DNA of 28,642 nt from an uncultured Gammaproteobacteria bacterium (GCA_964654265.1 CAZZIL010000360.1:1-28642), one strand, 5' to 3'. Shown: positions 5,658 through 14,945, counted from the stretch's first letter. A program made the numbers and translations. The notes: generated by a model from the sequence alone, not told the origin.

Positions 5658-5972
5658 CTACCCGACGACGAGGATCGCGAGCATCCCGGCGAGCACCGTC
5701 GCGAACAGGCTGCGGGTCGCGACCGCGCACGCCAGGCACACCGCCGCCGCGAGCAGCTGTGGGACGGCGTCCTCCCAGGATCCGCCGTCCTGCGGGATCA
5801 GCGCCTGCGCGACCAGCGCGGTCATGACGGTCACCGGGATGAACGACAGCCACTCGCGGAACCATCCCGGGAACTCCAGCCGCCTCAGGAGCGCCAGCGG
5901 CAGCACGCGCGGCAGCAGCGTCACCGCGCCGCACCCGAGGACGATCAGGAGGATTTCCGGCCTGACTTCCAC
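5658..5972 (-). CDS. azlD: AzlD-family small membrane subunit of a branched-chain amino acid exporter
   Basis: GTG at 5972 gives MEVRPEILLIVLGCGAVTLLPRVLP...WLSFIPVTVMTALV...SLFATVLAGM (104 aa); overlaps the azlC stop. The longer ORF-track entry 5658..6734 is an over-extension. Confidence 0.85.
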   Translation of the reverse strand: MEVRPEILLIVLGCGAVTLLPRVLPLALLRRLEFPGWFREWLSFIPVTVMTALVAQALIPQDGGSWEDAVPQLLAAAVCLACAVATRSLFATVLAGMLAILVVG

Positions 5973-6700
5973 CTTGACACCCCCATTGCGATCGACGCCG
6001 CGGCGACCGCGGTGACCACCACCCCGGAGTCGCGGCCGACCAGCCAGGACACGGGCTCGACGAGCGCGACCACCAGCAGCGCGGCGAACACCTCCAGCGC
6101 CCGGCTCCGGGCCGCCGATATCTGCGTCACGACGAGCCCGATGAACATCGCGACCAGCGCGAAGCGGAGGCTGCCGAACAGCCGCTCCGGGATCAGCCCG
6201 ACCGCCAGCGCGCCCGCGAGGTTGCCGGCCAGCCAGTTGGCGTAGGCCGTCAGGTTCAGCCCAAGCATCCACCAGAAGGAAATCCGCCCGGTGCGCCTCG
6301 CCTCCGCCGAGGCGACCCCGAACGTCTCGTCGGTCAGCTGGGAGCCGAGAAGCAGGCACCGGGCCGCGCCGAGCCGCCTGAGGAACGGGACCAGGAAGAT
6401 CGACATCAGCAGGTGGCGCAGGTTGACAAAGAAGACCGTCGCCCACACCGTCGCCGCCGCCGCCTGGGACTGGACCATCCCCGCGAGGATGAACTGCGCC
6501 GACCCGGCGTACAGCACCAGGCACGCGAGCGCGATCTCGGCGACGCTCATCCCCGACACCCGGCACAGCGCGCCCGCCGAGAACCCGATGCTCAGGTAGC
6601 CCAGGACGGTCGGCACGCACGCGACGCACCCCCGCCGGAACTCCGCGCCGCGCCCGTCGGCGACCGGCCCCTCGCGCGCGCCTGCGTCCCGTGCTGCCAT
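5945..6700 (-). CDS. azlC: AzlC-family branched-chain amino acid permease/exporter
   Basis: PTVLGYLSIGFSAG, YAGSAQF, VNLRHLLMS, LTDETFGVA, FALVAMFIGL motifs. Start ATG 6700 chosen (alternative ATG 6718). Confidence 0.9.
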   Translation of the reverse strand: MAARDAGAREGPVADGRGAEFRRGCVACVPTVLGYLSIGFSAGALCRVSGMSVAEIALACLVLYAGSAQFILAGMVQSQAAAATVWATVFFVNLRHLLMSIFLVPFLRRLGAARCLLLGSQLTDETFGVASAEARRTGRISFWWMLGLNLTAYANWLAGNLAGALAVGLIPERLFGSLRFALVAMFIGLVVTQISAARSRALEVFAALLVVALVEPVSWLVGRDSGVVVTAVAAASIAMGVSRWKSGRKSS

Positions 6701-6796
6701 ACCGAAAGCGGGTAGCATAACCGCGCGCCGGCAACCGGGGCGGACAGGTCCTGTCGGCGGGCGCGCGGCGGGCACGCGGTGTTGTAACATCGGCCC

Positions 6797-7897
6797 ATGG
6801 CGACGGACCGGGGGAATCCCTTCACGCCGGGCGCCGGCAGGAGCCCGCCGCTCCTGGCCGAGCGCGAGCGGGCAACGCGCATCCTGTCGGACGGGGTGCG
6901 CGACATCCTTGACGGCGATCACGGCAACGGTGTGGTGCTGTGCGGCCCGAGGGGCGCCGGCAAGACGGCCCTGCTGGCCGTGGCGGCGAGGCACGCGGCC
7001 GAGGGGCGGGCGAACGTGCGCGAGCTGGCGCCGGCCGGCGCCGCGGGCGGGACCGCATGGAGACTCCGGGCGCCCGGCAGACAGCCGGGAACGGCGGCCG
7101 GGAACGTGCCGGGGGAGGTGGCGCCCCCGCCCGGTTGCGTCGTTCTCGGGCTGCATTCCGTCGCGATGTCCGGCCCGACGCTGCTTCTGGTGGACGATGC
7201 GCACCGCCTGCCACCCGCCCTCGGCAGGGTGTTGCTCCATGCCATCCGGAGATGCGTCAGCCAAGGTCTTCCGTTGCTCGCCGTCCTTGCCGGGGACCCG
7301 CGCCTGCCGGAGACTCTCGGGAACACGGGCGCCGACTTCTGGGAGCTCATGCCCGACATCCACATCGGCCGCATCGGGTCCGACGACGCGGTCCGGATGG
7401 CGCTGGCGCTCCCCGCGGAAAGGTCGGGGCTCCCGATCGATGGCGACGCGGCGGACCTCCTGGTCCGCGAGAGCGAGGGGCACCCCTTCTTCATCCAGCT
7501 GCTCGGCAGCGAGGCGTGGCGGGAGGGCGCCGCAAGGCGGGGCGCGCCCCGCCGAATCACGCTGGCGGACGCGCGGCGGGGCGCCAAGGCCGCGAACCGG
7601 GAGCGGGAAAGGCTCTGCGCGGCCTGCCGGGCGGGGCTGCGCGAGCGCGGTCTTCTGGACACGGCCGAGTGGGTGTCGGGGCTGATGGTCGCGCCCGGCG
7701 GCCGGACGCTCCACTGGAAGACGGCAAAGGCCGCGCTGACGCAAGGCGAGGGTCCCGTCCCTCCCGATGCGCGGTGGGACCGCGTCAGGCAGGACCTGCG
7801 GGCGCTGGAGCGCCTGGGAGTGGTCTGGAGTGTGGGCGGCGGGTTCTGGGAGCCGGGCATCCCGGCGCTTTGCCGGCACCTGGTCGCCCACGCGTGA
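6797..7897 (+). CDS. P-loop ATP-binding protein (AAA_16 / archaeal-ATPase-like) with probable C-terminal winged helix
   Basis: N-terminal NPFTPGAGRSPPLLAERE, Walker A GPRGAGKT, Walker B LLLVDDAH, and SEGHPFFIQLLG helix typical of this family. Confidence 0.75.
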   Translation: MATDRGNPFTPGAGRSPPLLAERERATRILSDGVRDILDGDHGNGVVLCGPRGAGKTALLAVAARHAAEGRANVRELAPAGAAGGTAWRLRAPGRQPGTAAGNVPGEVAPPPGCVVLGLHSVAMSGPTLLLVDDAHRLPPALGRVLLHAIRRCVSQGLPLLAVLAGDPRLPETLGNTGADFWELMPDIHIGRIGSDDAVRMALALPAERSGLPIDGDAADLLVRESEGHPFFIQLLGSEAWREGAARRGAPRRITLADARRGAKAANRERERLCAACRAGLRERGLLDTAEWVSGLMVAPGGRTLHWKTAKAALTQGEGPVPPDARWDRVRQDLRALERLGVVWSVGGGFWEPGIPALCRHLVAHA

Positions 7898-7931
7898 GGA
7901 TCGCCGGGGGCGGCCCCGGCGCGGCGGCGCC

Positions 7932-7940
7932 TGCTAACAT
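7932..7940 (+). promoter_or_regulatory. putative extended -10 promoter (TGc-TAACAT) for GFA-ispG
   Basis: TGCTAACAT, followed by an AAGGAG RBS 5 nt before ATG 7976. Confidence 0.45.
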
Positions 7941-7975
7941 ATGCGCGGGTCTGGCCGACGGGACAAGGAGACGGC

Positions 7976-8404
7976 ATGTCAGGGGAGAAGGTGATCACCG
8001 GCGGGTGCCATTGCGGCGCGGTGCGCTACTCGTTCACCGGGAAGATGATGTGGCCGGGGAACTGCCACTGCTCGGTCTGCCGGAGGTTCAGCGGCGGCAA
8101 GGGAGGCTCCTGGTTCGGGGTCATGGCCGACGGCCTCGCGGTGGACGGGGAGGTCGCCTACCATGAGTACCGGGCCGACAGCGGGAACACCATCCGCCGC
8201 GGGCGGTGCGCGGTGTGCGGGGCCCCCGTGTGCAACCGCAACTCGGCGATGCCGGACGTCGTGGTGATCGCCGCCGGGAGCCTAGACGACCCGGGAGTGT
8301 TCGCGCCGCGCATGGAGATCTACGCGGGGAGCGCCCCGCCCTGGGACAGGCTTGACGGGGGGCTGCCGCACTTCGACGGGATGCCGGTCCCCGGCGGGGG
8401 CTGA
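7976..8404 (+). CDS. GFA/CENP-V family Zn-binding protein
   Basis: [18 protein letters not shown] and [10 protein letters not shown] cysteine motifs; strong RBS. Confidence 0.92.
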
Positions 8405-8409
8405 CGGGC

Positions 8410-9669
8410 TTGGGCGCCGGCCAAGCGGCCAGCCGCGAGAGGGACGACACGGAGGCCGCCTTCCCCACCCCGCGCCGGTCGATCCCGGTGCGGGTCGGCC
8501 CGGTGACCATCGGCGGCGGCGCCCCGGTGTCGGTGCAGTCGATGACCGACACCGAGACCGCGGACGTCGGGCGCACCGCGCGGCAGTGCCTGGAGCTGGC
8601 CCAGGCCGGGTCCGAGCTGGTGCGCATCACCGTGAACACGCCGGCGGCGGCAAGGGCCGTGCCGCACATCCGGGAACGCCTGCTGCGCGACGACTGTCCC
8701 GTCCCGCTGGTCGGTGACTTCCACTACAACGGCCACAAGCTGCTCGCGCGGGAGCCCGCGTGCGCCGAGGCGCTCGACAAGTTCCGCATCAACCCGGGGA
8801 ACGTCGGCCGGGGAGAGCGGCGCTCCAGGCACTTCGGCGAGATAGTCGAGGTCGCGTGCCGGCTGGGCAAGGCGGTGCGGATCGGCGTCAACTGGGGCAG
8901 CCTGGACCAGGAGCTGCTCACCCGGATGATGGACGAGAACGCGGCGCGCGCGGCCCCCCTGGACGCCAGGGCGGTCACCCGGGGCGCGCTGGTCGCCTCC
9001 GCGCTGCGCTCGGCCGAGGAGGCCGTCCGCGTCGGGCTGCCGAGCGACCGCATCGTCCTGTCCTGCAAGGTGAGCGAGGTCGGCACGCTGGTCCAGGTCT
9101 ACCGGGAGCTCGCCGCGCGGTGCGACCACCCGCTCCATGTCGGACTGACCGAGGCCGGCATGGGGATCAACGGGATCGTCTCCTCCACCGCGGCGATCGC
9201 GCTCCTCCTGGGCGAGGGCATCGGCGACACCATCCGCGTCTCGATCACCCCGCCCGCCGACGGCGACCGATGCGACGAGGTGCGCGTCGCCCAAGGCATC
9301 CTGCAGAGCCTCGGGCTCAGGTCGTTCGCGCCGTCGGTCACGTCCTGCCCGGGATGCGGGCGCACCGACAGCACGTTCTTCCAGCGGCTCGCCCAGGAGG
9401 TGCAGGAGGACATCAACCGGAACATGCCGCGCTGGCGCAAGGCCCACCCCGGCGTCGAGAACCTCAGGATCGCCGTCATGGGGTGCGTCGTCAACGGCCC
9501 CGGCGAAAGCCGGCACGCCGACATCGGGATCAGCCTCCCCGGCAGCGGCGAGGACCCGGTCGCGCCCGTCTTTGTCGACGGCGAGAAGGTGACCTCGCTC
9601 AAGGGGCCGGACATCGCGGGGGACTTCCGCGGGATCGTCGAGGACTACATCCGCCGCCGCTACGCCTGA
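8410..9669 (+). CDS. ispG: (E)-4-hydroxy-3-methylbut-2-enyl-diphosphate synthase
   Basis: [75 protein letters not shown] start is uncertain. Confidence 0.96.
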
Positions 9670-9792
9670 GCGCGCCGCGGACGGGTCCGCGACCAGCCAG
9701 CCGCCTGCCCAACTGGCTGTCACACAATGGCAACACGACACCCGCTCTGTGCACGGCGGCAGCCCCCGCATGCCGCTCGGACCATCCCGGAG

Positions 9793-9801
9793 TGGTATAC
9801 T
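9793..9801 (+). promoter_or_regulatory. putative extended -10 promoter (TGg-TATACT) for the ATPase-protease operon
   Basis: TGGTATACT about 150 nt upstream of ATG 9952. Confidence 0.5.
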
Positions 9802-9951
9802 GGAACAGAGGAACCTGCTGGCGGGGTCCGCGGATAGGGTGCCTCCTCCAAGCCTAGGCTTAGGGCGAGGGACCTGCGGAGGCAACAAGAGTCCCACTGG
9901 GGCACTTGCCTCAACCGGGACGCCACAGCGCACGATGGCGAAGACGGACAC

Positions 9952-10935
9952 ATGGCACGAGCTGACTTGCTACTGAACTTGGTCAAGGCCGGGACACGCG
10001 GCGACCAGGCGCAGTTTCAGCGGACCGTCGAGGCGCTGGTAGTCGATGAGCGCGCCAAGAAGCACGACGTCTTGGCGGATCGGTTGCTTGCCCAGATTCG
10101 CCGGGACGTGAACGGGCAGTCTAGCTCCCCCAACGGGAGAAGCGTGCACCTGCCCGCCACCCCCTACACGATCGAACGGGCACCGGAAAGACACCTCTGC
10201 GACTTGGTGCTCCCGCCCGAGGTGGAGGAGGCTGTGTCCGGACTGATCGAGGAGCAACATCGCGGGGACCTGTTGCGCTCCTACAACCTCACGCCGCGCA
10301 ACCGGGTGCTACTAGCCGGCCCCCCGGGCAACGGGAAGACATCGCTCACCGAGGCTATCGCCGACGCGCTGCACGTCCCCCTCCTGACAGTCCGTTACGA
10401 TTCGGTGATCGCAAGCTACCTTGGCGAGACCGCCCAACGCATCGGCCAAGTCTTCGAGCATGCCAGGTCGAGACGTTGTGTCCTGTTCTTCGATGAGTTC
10501 GACGCGATCGCAAAAGAGCGGGGAGACCCGCGCGAAACCGGGGAGATCAAGCGCGTGGTCAGCTCCCTGCTACTGCAGGTCGACGACCTTCCGAGCCATG
10601 TCGTTGTTGTCGCCGCAAGCAACCATCCAGAGCTGCTGGACCGGGCCGTGTGGCGGCGATTCCAGCTGCGTCTGGAGCTGCCGATGCCCCAACAGACCCA
10701 AATCGAGAGATGGGTCCGCCACTTCGAGGAACACACTGGCCAAGCCTTGGGCATGCAACCGCGCACCATTGCCCAACAGCTCGTGGGCCTGAGCTTCAGC
10801 GAGGTGGAAGATGTCGGCACCGATATTCTGCGGAAGATAGTTCTCGGTCAACCCGGAACAGATCCCCGGAAAGTCGCCGAGCAGAGTCTGCGCCAGTGGA
10901 GAAAGCGTTTTCGCATCTCCGAGCAAGACCAGTAA
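9952..10935 (+). CDS. ietA: AAA+ ATPase, IetA-like partner of an S8 protease
   Basis: Walker A GPPGNGKT, Walker B LFFDEFD, sensor-1/arginine fingers AASNHPELLDRAVWRRF; helical N-terminus MARADLLLNLVKAG; 8 nt upstream of an S8 protease gene. Confidence 0.85.
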   Translation: MARADLLLNLVKAGTRGDQAQFQRTVEALVVDERAKKHDVLADRLLAQIRRDVNGQSSSPNGRSVHLPATPYTIERAPERHLCDLVLPPEVEEAVSGLIEEQHRGDLLRSYNLTPRNRVLLAGPPGNGKTSLTEAIADALHVPLLTVRYDSVIASYLGETAQRIGQVFEHARSRRCVLFFDEFDAIAKERGDPRETGEIKRVVSSLLLQVDDLPSHVVVVAASNHPELLDRAVWRRFQLRLELPMPQQTQIERWVRHFEEHTGQALGMQPRTIAQQLVGLSFSEVEDVGTDILRKIVLGQPGTDPRKVAEQSLRQWRKRFRISEQDQ

Positions 10936-10943
10936 GAACAGCC

Positions 10944-13463
10944 ATGGCCACTCACCCACATCTGATCTTTCCAAAGCCGGGGCAAACCGTAGCACCCTCA
11001 CGTAGGGGTGGCGGGGACGTCAAGACCCCGACTCCCCAAGAACAAGGGAAACGACTTTCGCCAAGACTTGCGCATCTGGCAAGAGTCTTGGAACAAAAGC
11101 GCCTTGCCCTGAAGGACACATCGTTGGGACAAGAGCCGCATGAAGTGCTAGTGGTGGAGACGCGGGGCCCACCGCAAAAATTCATTGCGGCCGCAAAAAT
11201 GCTCGGATTTGGATGGCTCACGGAGGAGAGGCTGGAGGAAAAAATGCCCCCCGAACATGGTTTCGAGGCGGAATCCCGATCGCCCAAGAGAAGGACAAAA
11301 GGCCCGCCAAGAAAATTGTTCGGGCACCTCTATTTTGTTCTGGCAAACCGGACCGCCCTGGAGCAATTGCGCAAATTGTTTAAGCAGTGGGAGGAAACCC
11401 CGAAAATGAAATTTCCGCGCGGGATGGGTAAGCTCAAGGGTTTGTTTGTGCATGCCTACGACATCCGCTACTGGAGTGAGAAAGACCGCTTGCGGAGCAA
11501 CGGCTTCTTTAAAGACTGCGTAGGGCGCGCAGAGCACAAAGAGGATCGGTATCCCTTTGATGCAGAGCTTTGGTTCAAGCGAGATCCAAAAGAACGCCAA
11601 AAGATCGAAGCCGAGTTCATTAGAACCGTCAGGCAGCACGGCGGGACCATAACCGGACAAAGTGTCTTGTCTGATATCGCATACCATGGCATACTTGGGG
11701 ATGTCCCGAGCGCGATATTCGGGGACATGACAAACTTTGAGCGACACCCAATTTTCCAATGCCACAGCATTCGGTTCTTTGAAGCTGTCACAAAATGTTC
11801 TATCCCCTACCCCGGTGATACAGCAGGCGCAGAACCACTGGATTTTCACAAAACCAAGCCCCCAGATCTCCCTCCAGTCGTGGCCCTAATGGATGGGATG
11901 CCTCTGCAAAAGCACAGCTGCCTAGAAGGCCGAATCGAGATCATAGATCCCGATGATCTCCAAAGCGATAGTGATCCTAACACACGGAAGCACGGGACTG
12001 CCATGGCTTCGCTGATTTGTCACGGGGACCTAAACCTAGACGAAAAACCCATAAGGCAGATGCTGTGTGCTCTGCCAATCCTAAGGGCAAGACCCACCCT
12101 CAATGGCACAATCGAGGAAATTCCTGAGGGCCGTCTGATTGTAGACCAGATGCACCAGGCAGTGCGTCGTTTGAACGAATCCGCGCCGTCCATTCGCGTG
12201 GTGAATCTGTCAGTTTGCGATCCCCGAAGACCATTTGCACGGGAAATTAGTCCATGGGCGCGATTGTTGGACTGGCTTTCATACGAAAAAGACATTCTTT
12301 TCCTAGTGAGCGCAGGGAATTGCGACGTTTCTGTGTCACGAGACACAGGGACACAGCTTCCCCTTTCGGACTTAGACTGTTCGATTGCAAGCATCGTCCA
12401 ACATCCAGCGGACCGAAGAATCCTTGCACCAGCGGAAACTGTCAACGGTCTAACTGTGGGAGCAATCCAAACCGATTCGACGTTGTTTGATTATCAGAAG
12501 ACATATCTCACTGATCCATTTGAGAACCTGCGACTCCCAGGGCTCTATAGCGCACACGGCCCGGGATACCGCAAGGCGGTCAAGCCAGATATTTTTCTCC
12601 CCGGAGGGCGGGAACTATATGATGACCGTAAAACAGAACTCCGAACCAGTCAAACTCGGTTAGTTGGACAGAGGGTCGCCACTCCAGGTCATCTGCACGG
12701 GGGATTGACCGGTACTCGTCTCGAAATCGGCACTAGCAATGCCACCGCCCTAGCTGCTCGAAGCGCATGTTGTCTTCATGAAACGCTGAGCCTGTTGCGA
12801 GAACAAAACCATCAAGCACCATCACCAGAGTACGACACCGTTTTGCTTAAGACCCTTCTCGTCCATGGATCTGGTAGAAAACATTTTCCCCGGCACCAAG
12901 AAATCTTTGCGGAACATGGGGGGAAGCTCTCCCTAGAGCAACTTGGATATTATTTGGGATACGGAGAATTGGAGACTCCATCCGTGCAGACATGCACGGC
13001 CACACGTGTCACCGTATTGGGGTTCGGCTCTCTAAAGAACAAAATGGCACATTCTTTCTCCTTCCCATTTCCTCGAATTGTCTCCGATTCCAATCTGTCA
13101 CCCAGACTAATTGTGACCCTTGCTTGGCTCACCCCGATCAATCCGGAGAACCAAGAATACCGAGTTGCCAAGCTGTGGTTTCAGATTTCTGGCATGGAGG
13201 ATAACGACCTCTCGCGCGTGCGCACTGACCAGTATATGGCACAGCGAGGAACTGTCCAGCACGAAATATTTAATGTCAAGAGTGCCGTTGACCTTCGGGA
13301 AAGAAGCACAGCTGATATTCTCGTATGTTGTCGTGAAGAAGCAGGGAAGATCACGAAACCAATCCGGTACGGCCTAGCGGTTACTTTTGAGATCAGCCCT
13401 GAGTCCGAAATCGAGATCTACCAAGAAATCAAAGAGCGTCTCGAGGTCACTGTTGGGACGTAA
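10944..13463 (+). CDS. ietS: subtilisin-like S8 serine protease, IetS-like (839 aa)
   Basis: Intact catalytic set: VALMDG (Asp, 11892), KHGTAMAS (His, 11991), LVSAGN (oxyanion Asn), DRRILAPAE, GTSNATA (Ser, 12735). No signal peptide. ATG 10944 follows the ATPase stop. Confidence 0.88.
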   Translation: MATHPHLIFPKPGQTVAPSRRGGGDVKTPTPQEQGKRLSPRLAHLARVLEQKRLALKDTSLGQEPHEVLVVETRGPPQKFIAAAKMLGFGWLTEERLEEKMPPEHGFEAESRSPKRRTKGPPRKLFGHLYFVLANRTALEQLRKLFKQWEETPKMKFPRGMGKLKGLFVHAYDIRYWSEKDRLRSNGFFKDCVGRAEHKEDRYPFDAELWFKRDPKERQKIEAEFIRTVRQHGGTITGQSVLSDIAYHGILGDVPSAIFGDMTNFERHPIFQCHSIRFFEAVTKCSIPYPGDTAGAEPLDFHKTKPPDLPPVVALMDGMPLQKHSCLEGRIEIIDPDDLQSDSDPNTRKHGTAMASLICHGDLNLDEKPIRQMLCALPILRARPTLNGTIEEIPEGRLIVDQMHQAVRRLNESAPSIRVVNLSVCDPRRPFAREISPWARLLDWLSYEKDILFLVSAGNCDVSVSRDTGTQLPLSDLDCSIASIVQHPADRRILAPAETVNGLTVGAIQTDSTLFDYQKTYLTDPFENLRLPGLYSAHGPGYRKAVKPDIFLPGGRELYDDRKTELRTSQTRLVGQRVATPGHLHGGLTGTRLEIGTSNATALAARSACCLHETLSLLREQNHQAPSPEYDTVLLKTLLVHGSGRKHFPRHQEIFAEHGGKLSLEQLGYYLGYGELETPSVQTCTATRVTVLGFGSLKNKMAHSFSFPFPRIVSDSNLSPRLIVTLAWLTPINPENQEYRVAKLWFQISGMEDNDLSRVRTDQYMAQRGTVQHEIFNVKSAVDLRERSTADILVCCREEAGKITKPIRYGLAVTFEISPESEIEIYQEIKERLEVTVGT

Positions 13464-13467
13464 CCGC

Positions 13468-13489
13468 GCCGGACCTCCACAAATCCGGC
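13468..13489 (+). terminator. possible terminator hairpin after the S8 gene
   Basis: GCCGGA-N10-TCCGGC, 4 nt after the TAA; poor U-tract. Confidence 0.3.
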
Positions 13490-13701
13490 TGTCAAGGCAA
13501 GATCACCTAACACCCAAGAGTGCTTTGGGTCCATGTAGACAAACCAAGTGTTGCGTCGGCGGATTGGCGTTTCCTCGGAGTGCACGGTTTCATGTCCGGA
13601 CCTGCCGCTACGGTGCCAACCCCCAAGAACAAGTTCACGCCAGACAAGCCCGGACCTGTAGGGGAATCCCAAGACACGCATGAGGGGCACTGACCCGCGT
13701 C

Positions 13702-13761
13702 TAGGCTTTCGGGGACGCGCATCGCACAAATCCGCGCCCCTCCGCCGGTTAGGCTTTCGGG
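13702..13761 (+). repeat. 12-bp direct repeat TAGGCTTTCGGG x2 (period 48)
   Basis: Exact copies at 13702-13713 and 13750-13761, directly upstream of the TIR gene -35 box. Confidence 0.8.
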
Positions 13762-13778
13762 CACACCATCCTCCACGC

Positions 13779-13807
13779 TTGACCTCTTGGCCAGGCTCTG
13801 CTATACT
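13779..13807 (+). promoter_or_regulatory. near-consensus sigma70 promoter for the TIR gene
   Basis: -35 TTGACC (13779-13784), 17-nt spacer ending in TGC, -10 TATACT (13802-13807); GGAG/AGGA before GTG 13827. Confidence 0.75.
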
Positions 13808-13826
13808 ATCGGCGGAGTCAGGAAAA

Positions 13827-14459
13827 GTGAGACACAAGGTCTTCATCAGTCACCACCGCGAGGCGGACCAAGGCCACAAGGACCGACTGGTCGGCTTGGG
13901 GGCCGGTCTTTTCTTCATTGACCACCCGGTCTCGGACGGAGACATCCCCGACCACTGGGACACCGAGAGGATCCGGGAAAGGATCAGGATCGATCACCTT
14001 CAGGACTCCTCGGTGACGATCGTTCTCGTTGATCCTGGCGCGTGGCGACGAAAGCATGTCGACTGGGAGATCTACGCCAGCATGCGTCGCGCCCCCGGGA
14101 CTGAGCGCTCCGGGATTCTGGTCAGCGCCTTGCCGGAGGTGTACGTTCCCACCGACTACGAGATCGAGCGGAGGGTGGCGGAGTATCGGTCCATCGGCGG
14201 TGTCACGGAAAAGATGGCGGCCCTGTGGCGAATGTGGGCGAACCACATGCCGTGGGTGCCGGACCGGATCATCGACAATCTGGTCGAGGAGGATACCCAG
14301 GTTATCTTCTACGAGCTTCCCGACCTCGACAGGCACAGGCTTGAGGAGCAGGTCGAGTATGCCTACAGGACCCGCACCACGGGGAACTTCACCTTCCGCC
14401 GGGACCTGAAGAGACAGGACACCGAGCCTGCCCCCGGGTTGGTCGCGGACTGCTGGTAG
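13827..14459 (+). CDS. TIR-like domain protein (DUF1863/MTH538, Thoeris ThsB-like), 210 aa
   Basis: HKVFISHH, IRIDHLQDSSVTIVLV, RKHVDWEI (putative catalytic Glu81, codon 14067), PDRIIDN. GTG start supported by the promoter and RBS. Confidence 0.85.
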   Translation: MRHKVFISHHREADQGHKDRLVGLGAGLFFIDHPVSDGDIPDHWDTERIRERIRIDHLQDSSVTIVLVDPGAWRRKHVDWEIYASMRRAPGTERSGILVSALPEVYVPTDYEIERRVAEYRSIGGVTEKMAALWRMWANHMPWVPDRIIDNLVEEDTQVIFYELPDLDRHRLEEQVEYAYRTRTTGNFTFRRDLKRQDTEPAPGLVADCW

Positions 14460-14651: not shown

Positions 14652-14945
14652 GTGGAGCACGAGATCATCAGGGCCAAGTTCAGGATCGTCGGCGCGGTCC
14701 AGAACGTCGGCTACCGCCACTGGCTGCGGGGGCATTGCACCCGGCACAACATCCGCGGCTGGGCGCGCAACGAGTGTGACAGCTCGGTGACCACCCTGCT
14801 GGTGGGGCCGAAGGAGCACGTCGACGAGCTGTCGGGGTGGCTGAGGATCGGGCCGGAATCCGCCAGCGTGCTCGACGCCACCGCCCTCAGGCTGGAGGAC
14901 GAGGACACCGGCTGGAACGGCGACGGGTTCGAGGTGTTGGGCTAG
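14652..14945 (+). CDS. acyP: acylphosphatase
   Basis: 97 aa; GAVQNVGYR phosphate-binding loop with the catalytic Arg, GWARN with the catalytic Asn, WLRIGP. Confidence 0.85.
   Translation: MEHEIIRAKFRIVGAVQNVGYRHWLRGHCTRHNIRGWARNECDSSVTTLLVGPKEHVDELSGWLRIGPESASVLDATALRLEDEDTGWNGDGFEVLG

What the first reader, a model, noticed from the sequence alone, without database searches (positions are those of the whole stretch)
9952..14459. Defence islet: IetAS-like ATPase-subtilase pair followed by an orphan ThsB-like TIR with no ThsA
Seen: an AAA+ ATPase, an 839-aa cytoplasmic S8 protease with an intact Asp-His-Ser triad, then a co-oriented 210-aa TIR with WEI glutamate. No SIR2, STALD, Macro or caspase effector lies anywhere in the window. 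Known: ATPase plus S8 pairs (ietAS) act as toxin-antitoxin and anti-phage systems, and Thoeris ThsB TIRs make NAD-derived signals that need a separate effector. Inference: either the TIR is a stand-alone sensor signalling in trans to a ThsA elsewhere, or it is a direct NADase effector (possibly protease-gated), or the three genes form an undescribed tripartite TIR-ATPase-protease system. The separate promoter and higher GC of the TIR gene argue for separate acquisition, so the tripartite model is the least certain.
Basis: partly seen in the sequence, partly recalled or inferred. Interest (0 to 1): 0.75.

Follow-up and report, generated by a model that had tools for sequence, protein, structure and literature searches.

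The report
IetAS pair beside leftover Thoeris TIR
A sponge-associated bacterium carries the known two-gene IetAS anti-phage pair in a variable chromosome slot, and the TIR gene after it is the surviving last gene of a three-gene Thoeris-like cassette that a sister strain still has complete at the same place.

Summary
IetA (9952-10935), IetS (10944-13463, triad D317/H350/S598) and a 210-aa ThsB-type TIR (13827-14459, Glu81, own promoter) are all intact.

The TIR's origin can be traced. In a sister strain (L010, flanks 93-96% identical) the same ispG-acylphosphatase slot holds TIR_2 - SLOG - ThsB-TIR, a type-III-Thoeris-like cassette. In the window, ietA-ietS plus a spacer stand exactly where TIR_2 and SLOG stand there, and homology resumes at TIR codon 3.

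Relatives of this TIR elsewhere sit next to TIR-SLOG proteins and never next to IetAS. None of 80 IetAS loci from other species has this TIR family within 5 kb.

Inside this sponge-symbiont lineage, however, ietA-ietS-TIR recurs with at least three deep IetS allele lineages (dS about 1.2), while one allele's TIR segment is identical to the window's.

Best reading (0.6): two independent modules in a defence hot spot, with the TIR an orphaned signal generator. A co-opted three-part IetAS-TIR system is not excluded (about 0.2). This scan earlier noted IetAS beside an unrelated TIR in another genome.

Rated a new member of a known kind, of moderate interest.

The parts
8410..9669 (+). ispG (gcpE), conserved left flank of the variable slot
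   Evidence: Pfam GcpE E 3.4e-109. 95% nt identity to L010 up to window 9678. dS 0.094.
9679..13832 (+). Segment that stands in place of the TIR_2 and SLOG genes of the sister strain (ietA, ietS and both spacers)
   Evidence: blastn of window against L010: homology stops at 9678 and resumes at 13833. L010 has 5881-7976 (TIR_2 + LD_cluster2) there instead.
9952..10935 (+). IetA, AAA+ ATPase (putative antitoxin/regulator)
   Evidence: PADLOC IetA PDLC04232 E 1.4e-141 over 1-324/330. Pfam AAA 110 bits. Walker A and B read. GC3 0.76.
10944..13463 (+). IetS, 839-aa S8 subtilase-family protease (putative toxin/effector); hypervariable among alleles
   Evidence: PADLOC IetS PDLC04233 E 3.4e-239 over 1-837. 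Pfam Peptidase_S8 58.7 bits. D317, H350, S598 and N459 invariant. Alleles L024, L025 and L026 have dS 0.33-1.3 with dN/dS about 0.2. GC 0.52.
13464..13826 (+). IetS-TIR spacer, conserved (73-78%) in the four ietAS-TIR alleles and without similarity to the sister strain's cassette
   Evidence: blastn. Alignment.
13779..13807 (+). Sigma-70-like promoter of the TIR gene (TTGACC-17-TATACT, extended -10), followed by GGAG..AGGAAAA and GTG
   Evidence: The -10 box, RBS and start codon are kept in L024, L025 and L026. The scan as a whole is not above chance (2 sites found against 1.5 expected).
13827..14459 (+). ThsB-type TIR protein, 210 aa: TIR domain about residues 1-100 plus a family-specific C-terminal half
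   Evidence: PF08937 43.7 bits. Keeps all 25 family-invariant residues including R75-K76-H77, D79-W80-E81. AlphaFold2 pLDDT 90.3. Best Foldseek PDB matches are TIR domains, but weak (E 3e-3). 75% aa identity to the ThsB of the L010 cassette. GC3 0.84, like the L010 cassette at 0.81-0.87.
14652..14945 (+). Acylphosphatase gene, conserved right flank of the slot
   Evidence: Pfam Acylphosphatase E 2e-16. 100% aa identity to L010, dS 0.059.

Best explanation
The slot between ispG and the acylphosphatase gene is a defence hot spot in a high-GC, sponge-associated (probably gammaproteobacterial) symbiont lineage.

The window's version holds two separate things. (1) A complete IetA-IetS pair. By analogy with the described ietAS systems (inferred, not shown here), the AAA+ ATPase restrains a toxic cytoplasmic S8 protease until infection or loss of the pair releases it. 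(2) A ThsB-type TIR gene that is the retained last gene of a type-III-Thoeris-like cassette (TIR_2 protein, SLOG protein, small ThsB TIR).

In that cassette the small TIR is presumably the infection-triggered maker of an NAD-derived signal. The TIR-SLOG partner, fused into one protein of about 650 aa in most relatives, is presumably its receptor and NADase effector. Both roles are inferred.

In the window, ietAS and a spacer stand where the receptor/effector genes stand in the sister strain. The TIR is therefore an intact, separately promoted signal generator without its cognate receptor: an orphan, not a demonstrated third component of IetAS.
For: The IetAS identity is strong. IetA lies directly upstream of IetS in 78 of 80 loci from other species.

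The closest TIR homologue (75% aa) lies in L010 between the same ispG and acyP genes, as gene 3 of TIR_2 - LD_cluster2 - ThsB_TIR. Flanks are 93-96% identical, and the swap boundaries are 9678 and 13833.

The same three-gene cassette surrounds TIR homologues at about 40% identity in L011, L012 and L013. In 63 informative metagenomic loci of the family, a SLOG protein (mostly a fused TIR-SLOG) is directly upstream in 24 and adjacent in about 7 more. None has IetA or IetS.

No member of this TIR family lies within 5 kb of IetS in 80 species. No TIR family appears among the families listed for 48 downstream ORFs (25 of 67 shown).

The TIR's GC3 (0.84) matches the L010 cassette (0.81-0.87), not ietS (0.53).

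Contig C295 of the same bin carries IetA, the first 20-30 nt of IetS, the last 78 nt of TIR_2, a whole SLOG gene, a frameshifted and truncated TIR, and acyP. This looks like a deletion derivative of a stacked ietAS + TIR_2-SLOG-TIR ancestor.

The literature describes ietAS as a two-gene TA/anti-phage system (PMC13069673) and type III Thoeris as several TIR proteins plus a SLOG effector (10.64898/2025.12.03.692087).
Against: The ietA-ietS-spacer-TIR arrangement recurs in four alleles (window, L024, L025, L026). Their IetS genes differ by dS 0.33-1.3, yet the spacer, the -10 box, the RBS and the TIR start are kept. The L025-type allele sits at the same chromosomal site in two further studies. 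The adjacency is therefore old or repeatedly re-formed, not a one-off accident.

The TIR is fully intact with all invariant residues, whereas the TIR on C295 has decayed.

The first 100 TIR codons differ from L010 by dS 0.73, against 0.06-0.11 in the flanks. There is thus an IetAS-linked TIR allele distinct from the SLOG-linked one.

Nothing here measures selection on the TIR within the IetAS context.
Confidence: 0.6

Rival explanations
1. Co-opted three-part system. In this symbiont lineage the ThsB TIR has become a working partner of IetAS. Its NAD-derived product might gate the S8 protease, as TIR signals gate the caspase-like protease of type IV Thoeris. Alternatively it might be a second effector released by IetS or IetA.
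For: Four divergent ietAS alleles all keep the same spacer, promoter, RBS and TIR start. The TIR is intact. The window and L025 share an identical TIR segment (351 nt) although their IetS genes are only 59-78% identical in nucleotides. ietAS is known to recruit essential third genes, as in ietHAS (PMC13069673). TIR-to-protease signalling has a precedent in type IV Thoeris (10.1101/2024.10.24.620036).
Against: None of the 80 IetAS loci from other species has this TIR family nearby. The TIR's relatives pair with TIR-SLOG or other small proteins, never with IetAS. The TIR has its own promoter in both contexts, and 363 bp separate it from ietS. A sister strain uses the orthologous TIR with TIR_2-SLOG at the same site. 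Conserved flanks around a hypervariable gene are also what recombination anchors look like.
Confidence: 0.2
2. Sensor acting in trans. The TIR still makes its signal, and a receptor/effector encoded elsewhere in the same cell responds.
For: Thoeris loci with several ThsB genes per effector are described (10.64898/2025.12.03.692087). The bin contains one LD_cluster2 SLOG gene (C295) and about 11 SIR2_2 paralogues.
Against: C295 carries the same acyP flank, so it is most simply the same locus from a co-binned strain and not a second locus. The SIR2 paralogues lack any SLOG domain and best match Argonaute-associated SIR2. No STALD, TIR_2 or caspase match was found in the 92%-complete bin.
Confidence: 0.1
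3. Stand-alone NADase. The TIR itself depletes NAD+ on infection and needs no partner.
For: The catalytic Glu is intact. Stand-alone bacterial TIRs are treated as NAD-depleting effectors in the literature (10.64898/2025.12.03.692087, section 5).
Against: This family is found almost always beside a candidate partner gene. This fits a signalling ThsB rather than a self-sufficient effector.
Confidence: 0.1

Closest known systems
IetAS (gao_iet; IetA AAA+ ATPase + IetS S8 protease), a plasmid-stabilising toxin-antitoxin pair and anti-phage system
   Same: Same two-gene architecture with an 8-nt gap. Full-length PADLOC profile matches. Intact Walker motifs and S8 triad.
   Different: Far below NCBIfam's equivalog cut-offs: IteA 236 against 510 bits, IteS 66 against 900. 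It therefore belongs to a different subfamily from the NCBI-modelled one, with only about 42% identity to the nearest IetS outside the sponge clade. IetS is hypervariable between strains at one chromosomal site. It is followed by a ThsB TIR.
Type III Thoeris (several TIR-domain proteins plus a SLOG-domain effector, ThsD)
   Same: The window's TIR is orthologous to the third gene of a TIR_2 - SLOG(LD_cluster2) - ThsB_TIR cassette at the same site in a sister strain and in distant bacteria.
   Different: The window lacks the SLOG gene and the second TIR gene. Membership of the sister cassette in published type III was judged from domain architecture only, not with that system's own models.
ietHAS (ietAS that has recruited an essential SNF2 helicase; PMC13069673)
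   Same: Precedent for a third gene joining ietAS.
   Different: The third gene there is a helicase shown by mutation to be required. Here the third gene is a TIR with no functional evidence and its own promoter.
Type IV Thoeris (TIR + caspase-like protease activated by N7-cADPR)
   Same: A TIR next to a protease.
   Different: The protease here is an S8 subtilase controlled by an AAA+ ATPase, not a caspase-like (C14) enzyme. No C14 match was found in the assembly.

Membership tests
IetAS | AAA+ ATPase gene immediately upstream of, and co-oriented with, an S8 protease gene | tested here: met
   9952-10935 and 10944-13463, 8-nt gap. Same order in 78 of 80 homologous loci.
IetAS | Both proteins match IetA/IetS profiles over their full length | tested here: met
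   PADLOC PDLC04232 E 1.4e-141 (1-324/330). PDLC04233 E 3.4e-239 (1-848/855).
IetAS | NCBIfam equivalog scores for IteA and IteS (cut-offs 510 and 900 bits) | tested here: not met
   235.6 and 66.2 bits. It belongs to a different IetAS subfamily from the one NCBI models; the PADLOC subfamily models fit.
IetAS | Catalytic residues: Walker A/B in IetA; Asp-His-Ser triad in IetS | tested here: met
   GPPGNGKT and VLFFDEFD. D317, H350, S598 and N459 invariant in 22 sequences.
IetAS | Toxin-antitoxin behaviour and anti-phage activity | not testable with these tools
   Needs expression and phage challenge.
Thoeris (any type) | ThsB: TIR domain with catalytic glutamate | tested here: met
   PF08937 43.7 bits against a cut-off of 21.2. 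E81 in the invariant DWE motif. Confident model whose best, weak PDB matches are TIR domains.
Thoeris (any type) | Adjacent cognate effector gene (SIR2-SLOG, Macro-TM, SLOG, caspase-like and others) | tested here: not met
   No SIR2_2, STALD, LD_cluster2, TIR_2, Macro or C14 match on this contig. The neighbours are IetS and an acylphosphatase gene.
Type III Thoeris-like cassette | Two or more TIR proteins plus a SLOG protein in one operon | tested here: not met
   Not met in the window, which has one TIR and no SLOG. Met in the sister locus L010 and in L011-L013.
Type IV Thoeris | Caspase-like (C14) protease effector next to the TIR | tested here: not met
   The protease is S8. PF00656 was not found in the assembly.

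The most novel reading that the evidence does not exclude
In this sponge-symbiont lineage a ThsB TIR orphaned from a Thoeris cassette has been captured by IetAS. The result would be a three-part system in which a TIR-made nucleotide signal, or the TIR as a second effector, is coupled to an ATPase-controlled S8 protease. The deep, balanced IetS allele series (dS about 1.2 between conserved IetA and identical TIR) would mark IetS as the phage-specificity determinant.
Probability: 0.17. Interest if true: 0.75.

Novelty: new member of a known kind. Interest (0 to 1): 0.4.

Why it matters
The finding looked like a possible new tripartite TIR-ATPase-protease system. On the evidence it is a known IetAS pair parked beside the remnant of a Thoeris-like cassette, which shows how gene adjacency in defence islands can mislead.

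Three points are of real, if moderate, value:
- It is a traceable natural example of cassette replacement at gene boundaries in a chromosomal hot spot. Three haplotypes of one site are visible: TIR_2-SLOG-TIR, ietAS-TIR, and IetA-SLOG-decayed TIR.
- It points to a TIR-SLOG protein as the likely receptor/effector for this ThsB family. The signalling of that system type is still uncharacterised.
- IetS, but not IetA, is hypervariable between closely related strains. This hints that the protease carries the specificity of a system whose mechanism is unknown.

Tried and rejected
- **Longer TIR ORF from ATG 13680 (259 aa).** Rejected. The upstream frame is not conserved in L024 and L026, and family members start at the MHKVF motif.
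- **Remnant of TIR_2 or SLOG in the 363-bp spacer.** A sensitive blastn found no similarity to L010, L011 or C295. The spacer belongs to the ietAS-TIR unit.
- **thsA in the genome.** No STALD, TIR_2 or C14 match. The 11 SIR2_2 hits are stand-alone proteins that best match Argonaute-associated SIR2 and have no SLOG. Two Macro-domain hits on other contigs were not examined further. The bin is 92% complete, so absence is not proven.
- **Relatives in GTDB.** Only remote TIR hits in 4 of 100 related genomes. The same-genus genome G001 has ispG followed about 0.6 kb later by downstream flank genes, with no match to ietA, ietS, the TIR or acyP; its 66-70% identity is too low for fine comparison.
- **Foldseek against the PDB.** Only weak TIR matches (best E 3e-3). 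This supports the fold but names no close solved relative.
- **Promoter scan.** The count of sites is not above chance (2 against 1.5 expected). The promoter call rests on conservation across alleles.
- **Complex prediction.** Not run. The report does not claim that the proteins bind, and IetS plus TIR exceeds the size limit.
- **Earlier notes of this scan.** They had no look-alike of this TIR.
Full report
**Setting.** The window is a whole 28.6-kb contig (C360) of a 2.9-Mb, 549-contig metagenome bin with 70% GC, 92% completeness and 4.8% contamination. Runs that hold the sequence are sponge metagenomes. The nearest named IspG relatives are Gammaproteobacteria or Burkholderiales at 66-69% identity. 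"Sponge-associated, probably gammaproteobacterial" is therefore an inference. The same-genus reference genome is 1.7 Mb, and several short contigs of the bin are near-duplicates of each other. The bin probably mixes related strains.

**Observation.** GC falls from about 0.73 to 0.52 between 9.7 and 14.5 kb. Three co-oriented genes lie there.
- IetA, 9952-10935, 327 aa. Pfam AAA 110 bits. PADLOC IetA E 1.4e-141 over its full length. Walker A GPPGNGKT and Walker B VLFFDEFD.
- IetS, 10944-13463, 839 aa, starting 8 nt after ietA. PADLOC IetS E 3.4e-239 over its full length. Pfam Peptidase_S8. In a 22-sequence alignment D317, H350, S598 and N459 are invariant. No hydrophobic N-terminus is visible, by reading only.
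- TIR, 13827-14459, 210 aa, GTG start. PF08937 ThsB_TIR 43.7 bits. All 25 residues invariant in a 35-member family alignment are present, including D79-W80-E81. The AlphaFold2 model is confident (pLDDT 90.3). Its best PDB matches are TIR domains, but weak.

A TTGACC-17-TATACT site with an extended -10 box lies at 13779-13807, followed by a GGAG/AGGAAAA ribosome-binding region. The flanks are housekeeping genes: ispG 8410-9669 and an acylphosphatase gene 14652-14945. Neither an integrase nor a tRNA adjoins the islet. Exact unitigs from two runs tile IetS-spacer-TIR.

**Where the TIR comes from.** The TIR has a family of full-length relatives of about 200 aa. The closest (75% aa) lies on a 15-kb contig, L010, that is collinear with the window: murJ, azlCD, GFA, ispG, then TIR_2 (382 aa) - LD_cluster2/SLOG (275 aa) - ThsB_TIR (209 aa), then acylphosphatase, URO-D, SBP_bac_5, SDR and SurA.
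- Flanks are 93-96% identical. Homology stops 9 nt after the ispG stop (window 9678) and resumes at TIR codon 3 (13833). Thus ietA, ietS and both spacers (4154 bp) stand exactly where TIR_2 and SLOG (2096 bp) stand in L010.
- The same three-gene cassette surrounds TIR relatives at about 40% identity in three other contigs.
- In 80 metagenomic loci of the family, 63 have at least 900 nt upstream. Of those, 24 have a SLOG protein directly upstream, usually fused with the TIR_2 part into one ORF of about 650 aa. About 7 more have it next door in another position. The rest have other recurrent small partners. None has IetA or IetS.
- The TIR's GC3 (0.84) matches the L010 cassette (0.81-0.87), not ietS (0.53).

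The literature describes "type III Thoeris" as several TIR proteins plus a SLOG effector with uncharacterised signalling (10.64898/2025.12.03.692087). The L010 cassette resembles that by architecture. I did not test it with that system's own models.

**Does IetAS travel with TIRs?** An alignment-based scan returned 80 IetS loci from 80 species across many phyla.
- IetA is directly upstream in 78 of them.
- An HMM of the TIR family finds nothing within 5 kb in any of them.
- Pfam scans of 48 co-oriented downstream ORFs show type I R-M subunits and SNF2/ResIII helicases. No TIR family is among the families listed, which are 25 of 67.

So there is no general IetS-TIR association.

**Recurrence inside this lineage.** The three closest IetS homologues (87, 65 and 63% aa) lie on short contigs from sponge-type samples, L024, L025 and L026.
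- All three have IetA-IetS-spacer-promoter-TIR start, at 88, 77 and 72% nt identity to the window.
- IetA is about 90% conserved. IetS falls to 55-78% in L025 and L026. The 351 nt of TIR present in L025 are identical to the window's.
- IetS alleles differ by dS 0.33-1.3 with dN/dS about 0.2. IetA alleles differ by dS 0.4-0.57.
- The L025-type allele occurs in two further studies. There a contig also bridges ispG to ietA, so it occupies the same chromosomal site.
- Against L010, the first 100 TIR codons have dS 0.73 (dN/dS 0.28) and the last 109 have dS 0.19. The flanking genes have dS 0.06-0.11. An IetAS-linked TIR allele and a SLOG-linked one therefore exist, with a crossover inside the gene.

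**A third haplotype.** Contig C295 of the same bin carries the following, in order:
- an intact IetA allele (87% nt, PADLOC E 2e-135);
- the first 20-30 nt of IetS;
- the last 78 nt of TIR_2;
- a whole SLOG gene;
- a frameshifted, truncated TIR;
- the acyP flank.

The simplest history (inferred) is that ietAS once lay upstream of a complete TIR_2-SLOG-TIR cassette and that different deletions produced C295 and the window's form. Because C295 shares the acyP flank, it is most likely the same locus from a co-binned strain. It is not evidence for a SLOG partner acting in trans.

**Search for effectors elsewhere in the bin.**
- No STALD, TIR_2 or C14 match.
- One LD_cluster2, on C295.
- Two Macro-domain ORFs, not examined further.
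- About 11 stand-alone SIR2_2 paralogues without SLOG, whose best PADLOC match is Argonaute-associated SIR2.

**Interpretation.** What is shown: the IetAS identity and integrity; the TIR's orthology to the third gene of a TIR_2-SLOG-ThsB cassette at the same site; the absence of IetS-TIR linkage outside the lineage; and its recurrence inside it.

What is inferred: IetAS works as described elsewhere, with the protease as toxin and the ATPase as antitoxin and the anti-phage mechanism unknown (PMC13069673). The small TIR is the signal generator and TIR-SLOG its receptor/effector, by analogy with SIR2-SLOG ThsA.

I put 0.6 on independent modules with an orphaned ThsB, 0.2 on co-option into a three-part IetAS-TIR system, 0.1 on action in trans and 0.1 on a stand-alone NADase. 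The main weakness of the preferred reading is that the adjacency persists across deep IetS alleles with an intact TIR and conserved expression signals. The main weakness of co-option is that conserved IetA and TIR around a hypervariable IetS is also what recombination anchors would look like, and no data here measure selection on the TIR in the IetAS context.

**Verdict.** This is a known system (a divergent IetAS subfamily) beside a relic of a Thoeris-like cassette. It is a new member of a known kind and of moderate interest, mainly for the evolutionary picture and the hypervariable IetS.

Noticed in passing
window 6752-7910 (ORF 6797-7897 +): A single 366-aa P-loop ORF is present in the window but absent from the collinear sister contig L010, which has 32 nt there. 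It has only weak AAA_22/AAA_16 hits, no convincing PADLOC hit, and a native-like GC3 of 0.89. This is a second strain-variable insertion on the contig.
   Followed up: partly
G000 contig C295 (locus L023), 1-2606: A third haplotype of the same slot: intact IetA allele, stub of IetS, tail of TIR_2, whole LD_cluster2 SLOG gene, frameshifted and truncated TIR, acyP. Probably from a co-binned related strain.
   Followed up: partly
G000 contigs C284, C192, C140, C348, C72, C71, C146, C7, C482, C47, C367 (loci L001-L008): About 11 stand-alone SIR2_2 paralogues of 300-330 aa without a SLOG domain. Their best PADLOC match is Argonaute-associated SIR2 (Aga_SIR2, E 1e-42). Several are near-duplicate pairs on short contigs. 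No Argonaute was looked for.
   Followed up: partly
window 10944-13463 against L024, L025, L026: IetS alleles at one chromosomal site differ by dS up to 1.3 (dN/dS about 0.2) and keep a low GC of about 0.52 in a 70% GC genome. IetA and the TIR beside them are far more conserved. This suggests long-lived alleles or repeated allele import, with IetS as the variable, possibly specificity-bearing part.
   Followed up: partly
loci L027-L106 (IetS homologues in 80 species): Genes just downstream of IetAS are often type I R-M subunits (HsdS, HsdR) or SNF2/ResIII helicases. The latter recall the published ietHAS variant.
   Followed up: no
e.g. L122:3523-4002, L164:3478-4008, L169:585-1055; L138:3593-3976, L161:3577-3978: Members of this ThsB family that lack a SLOG neighbour often have one of two things directly upstream: a conserved soluble protein of about 157 aa without Pfam or PADLOC match, or a small protein with 2-3 predicted membrane helices. 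These are candidate alternative effectors.
   Followed up: partly
whole assembly G000: The bin is 2.9 Mb in 549 contigs against 1.7 Mb for the same-genus genome, and it holds allelic versions of one locus. It probably merges several strains, so genome-wide presence or absence statements need care.
   Followed up: no
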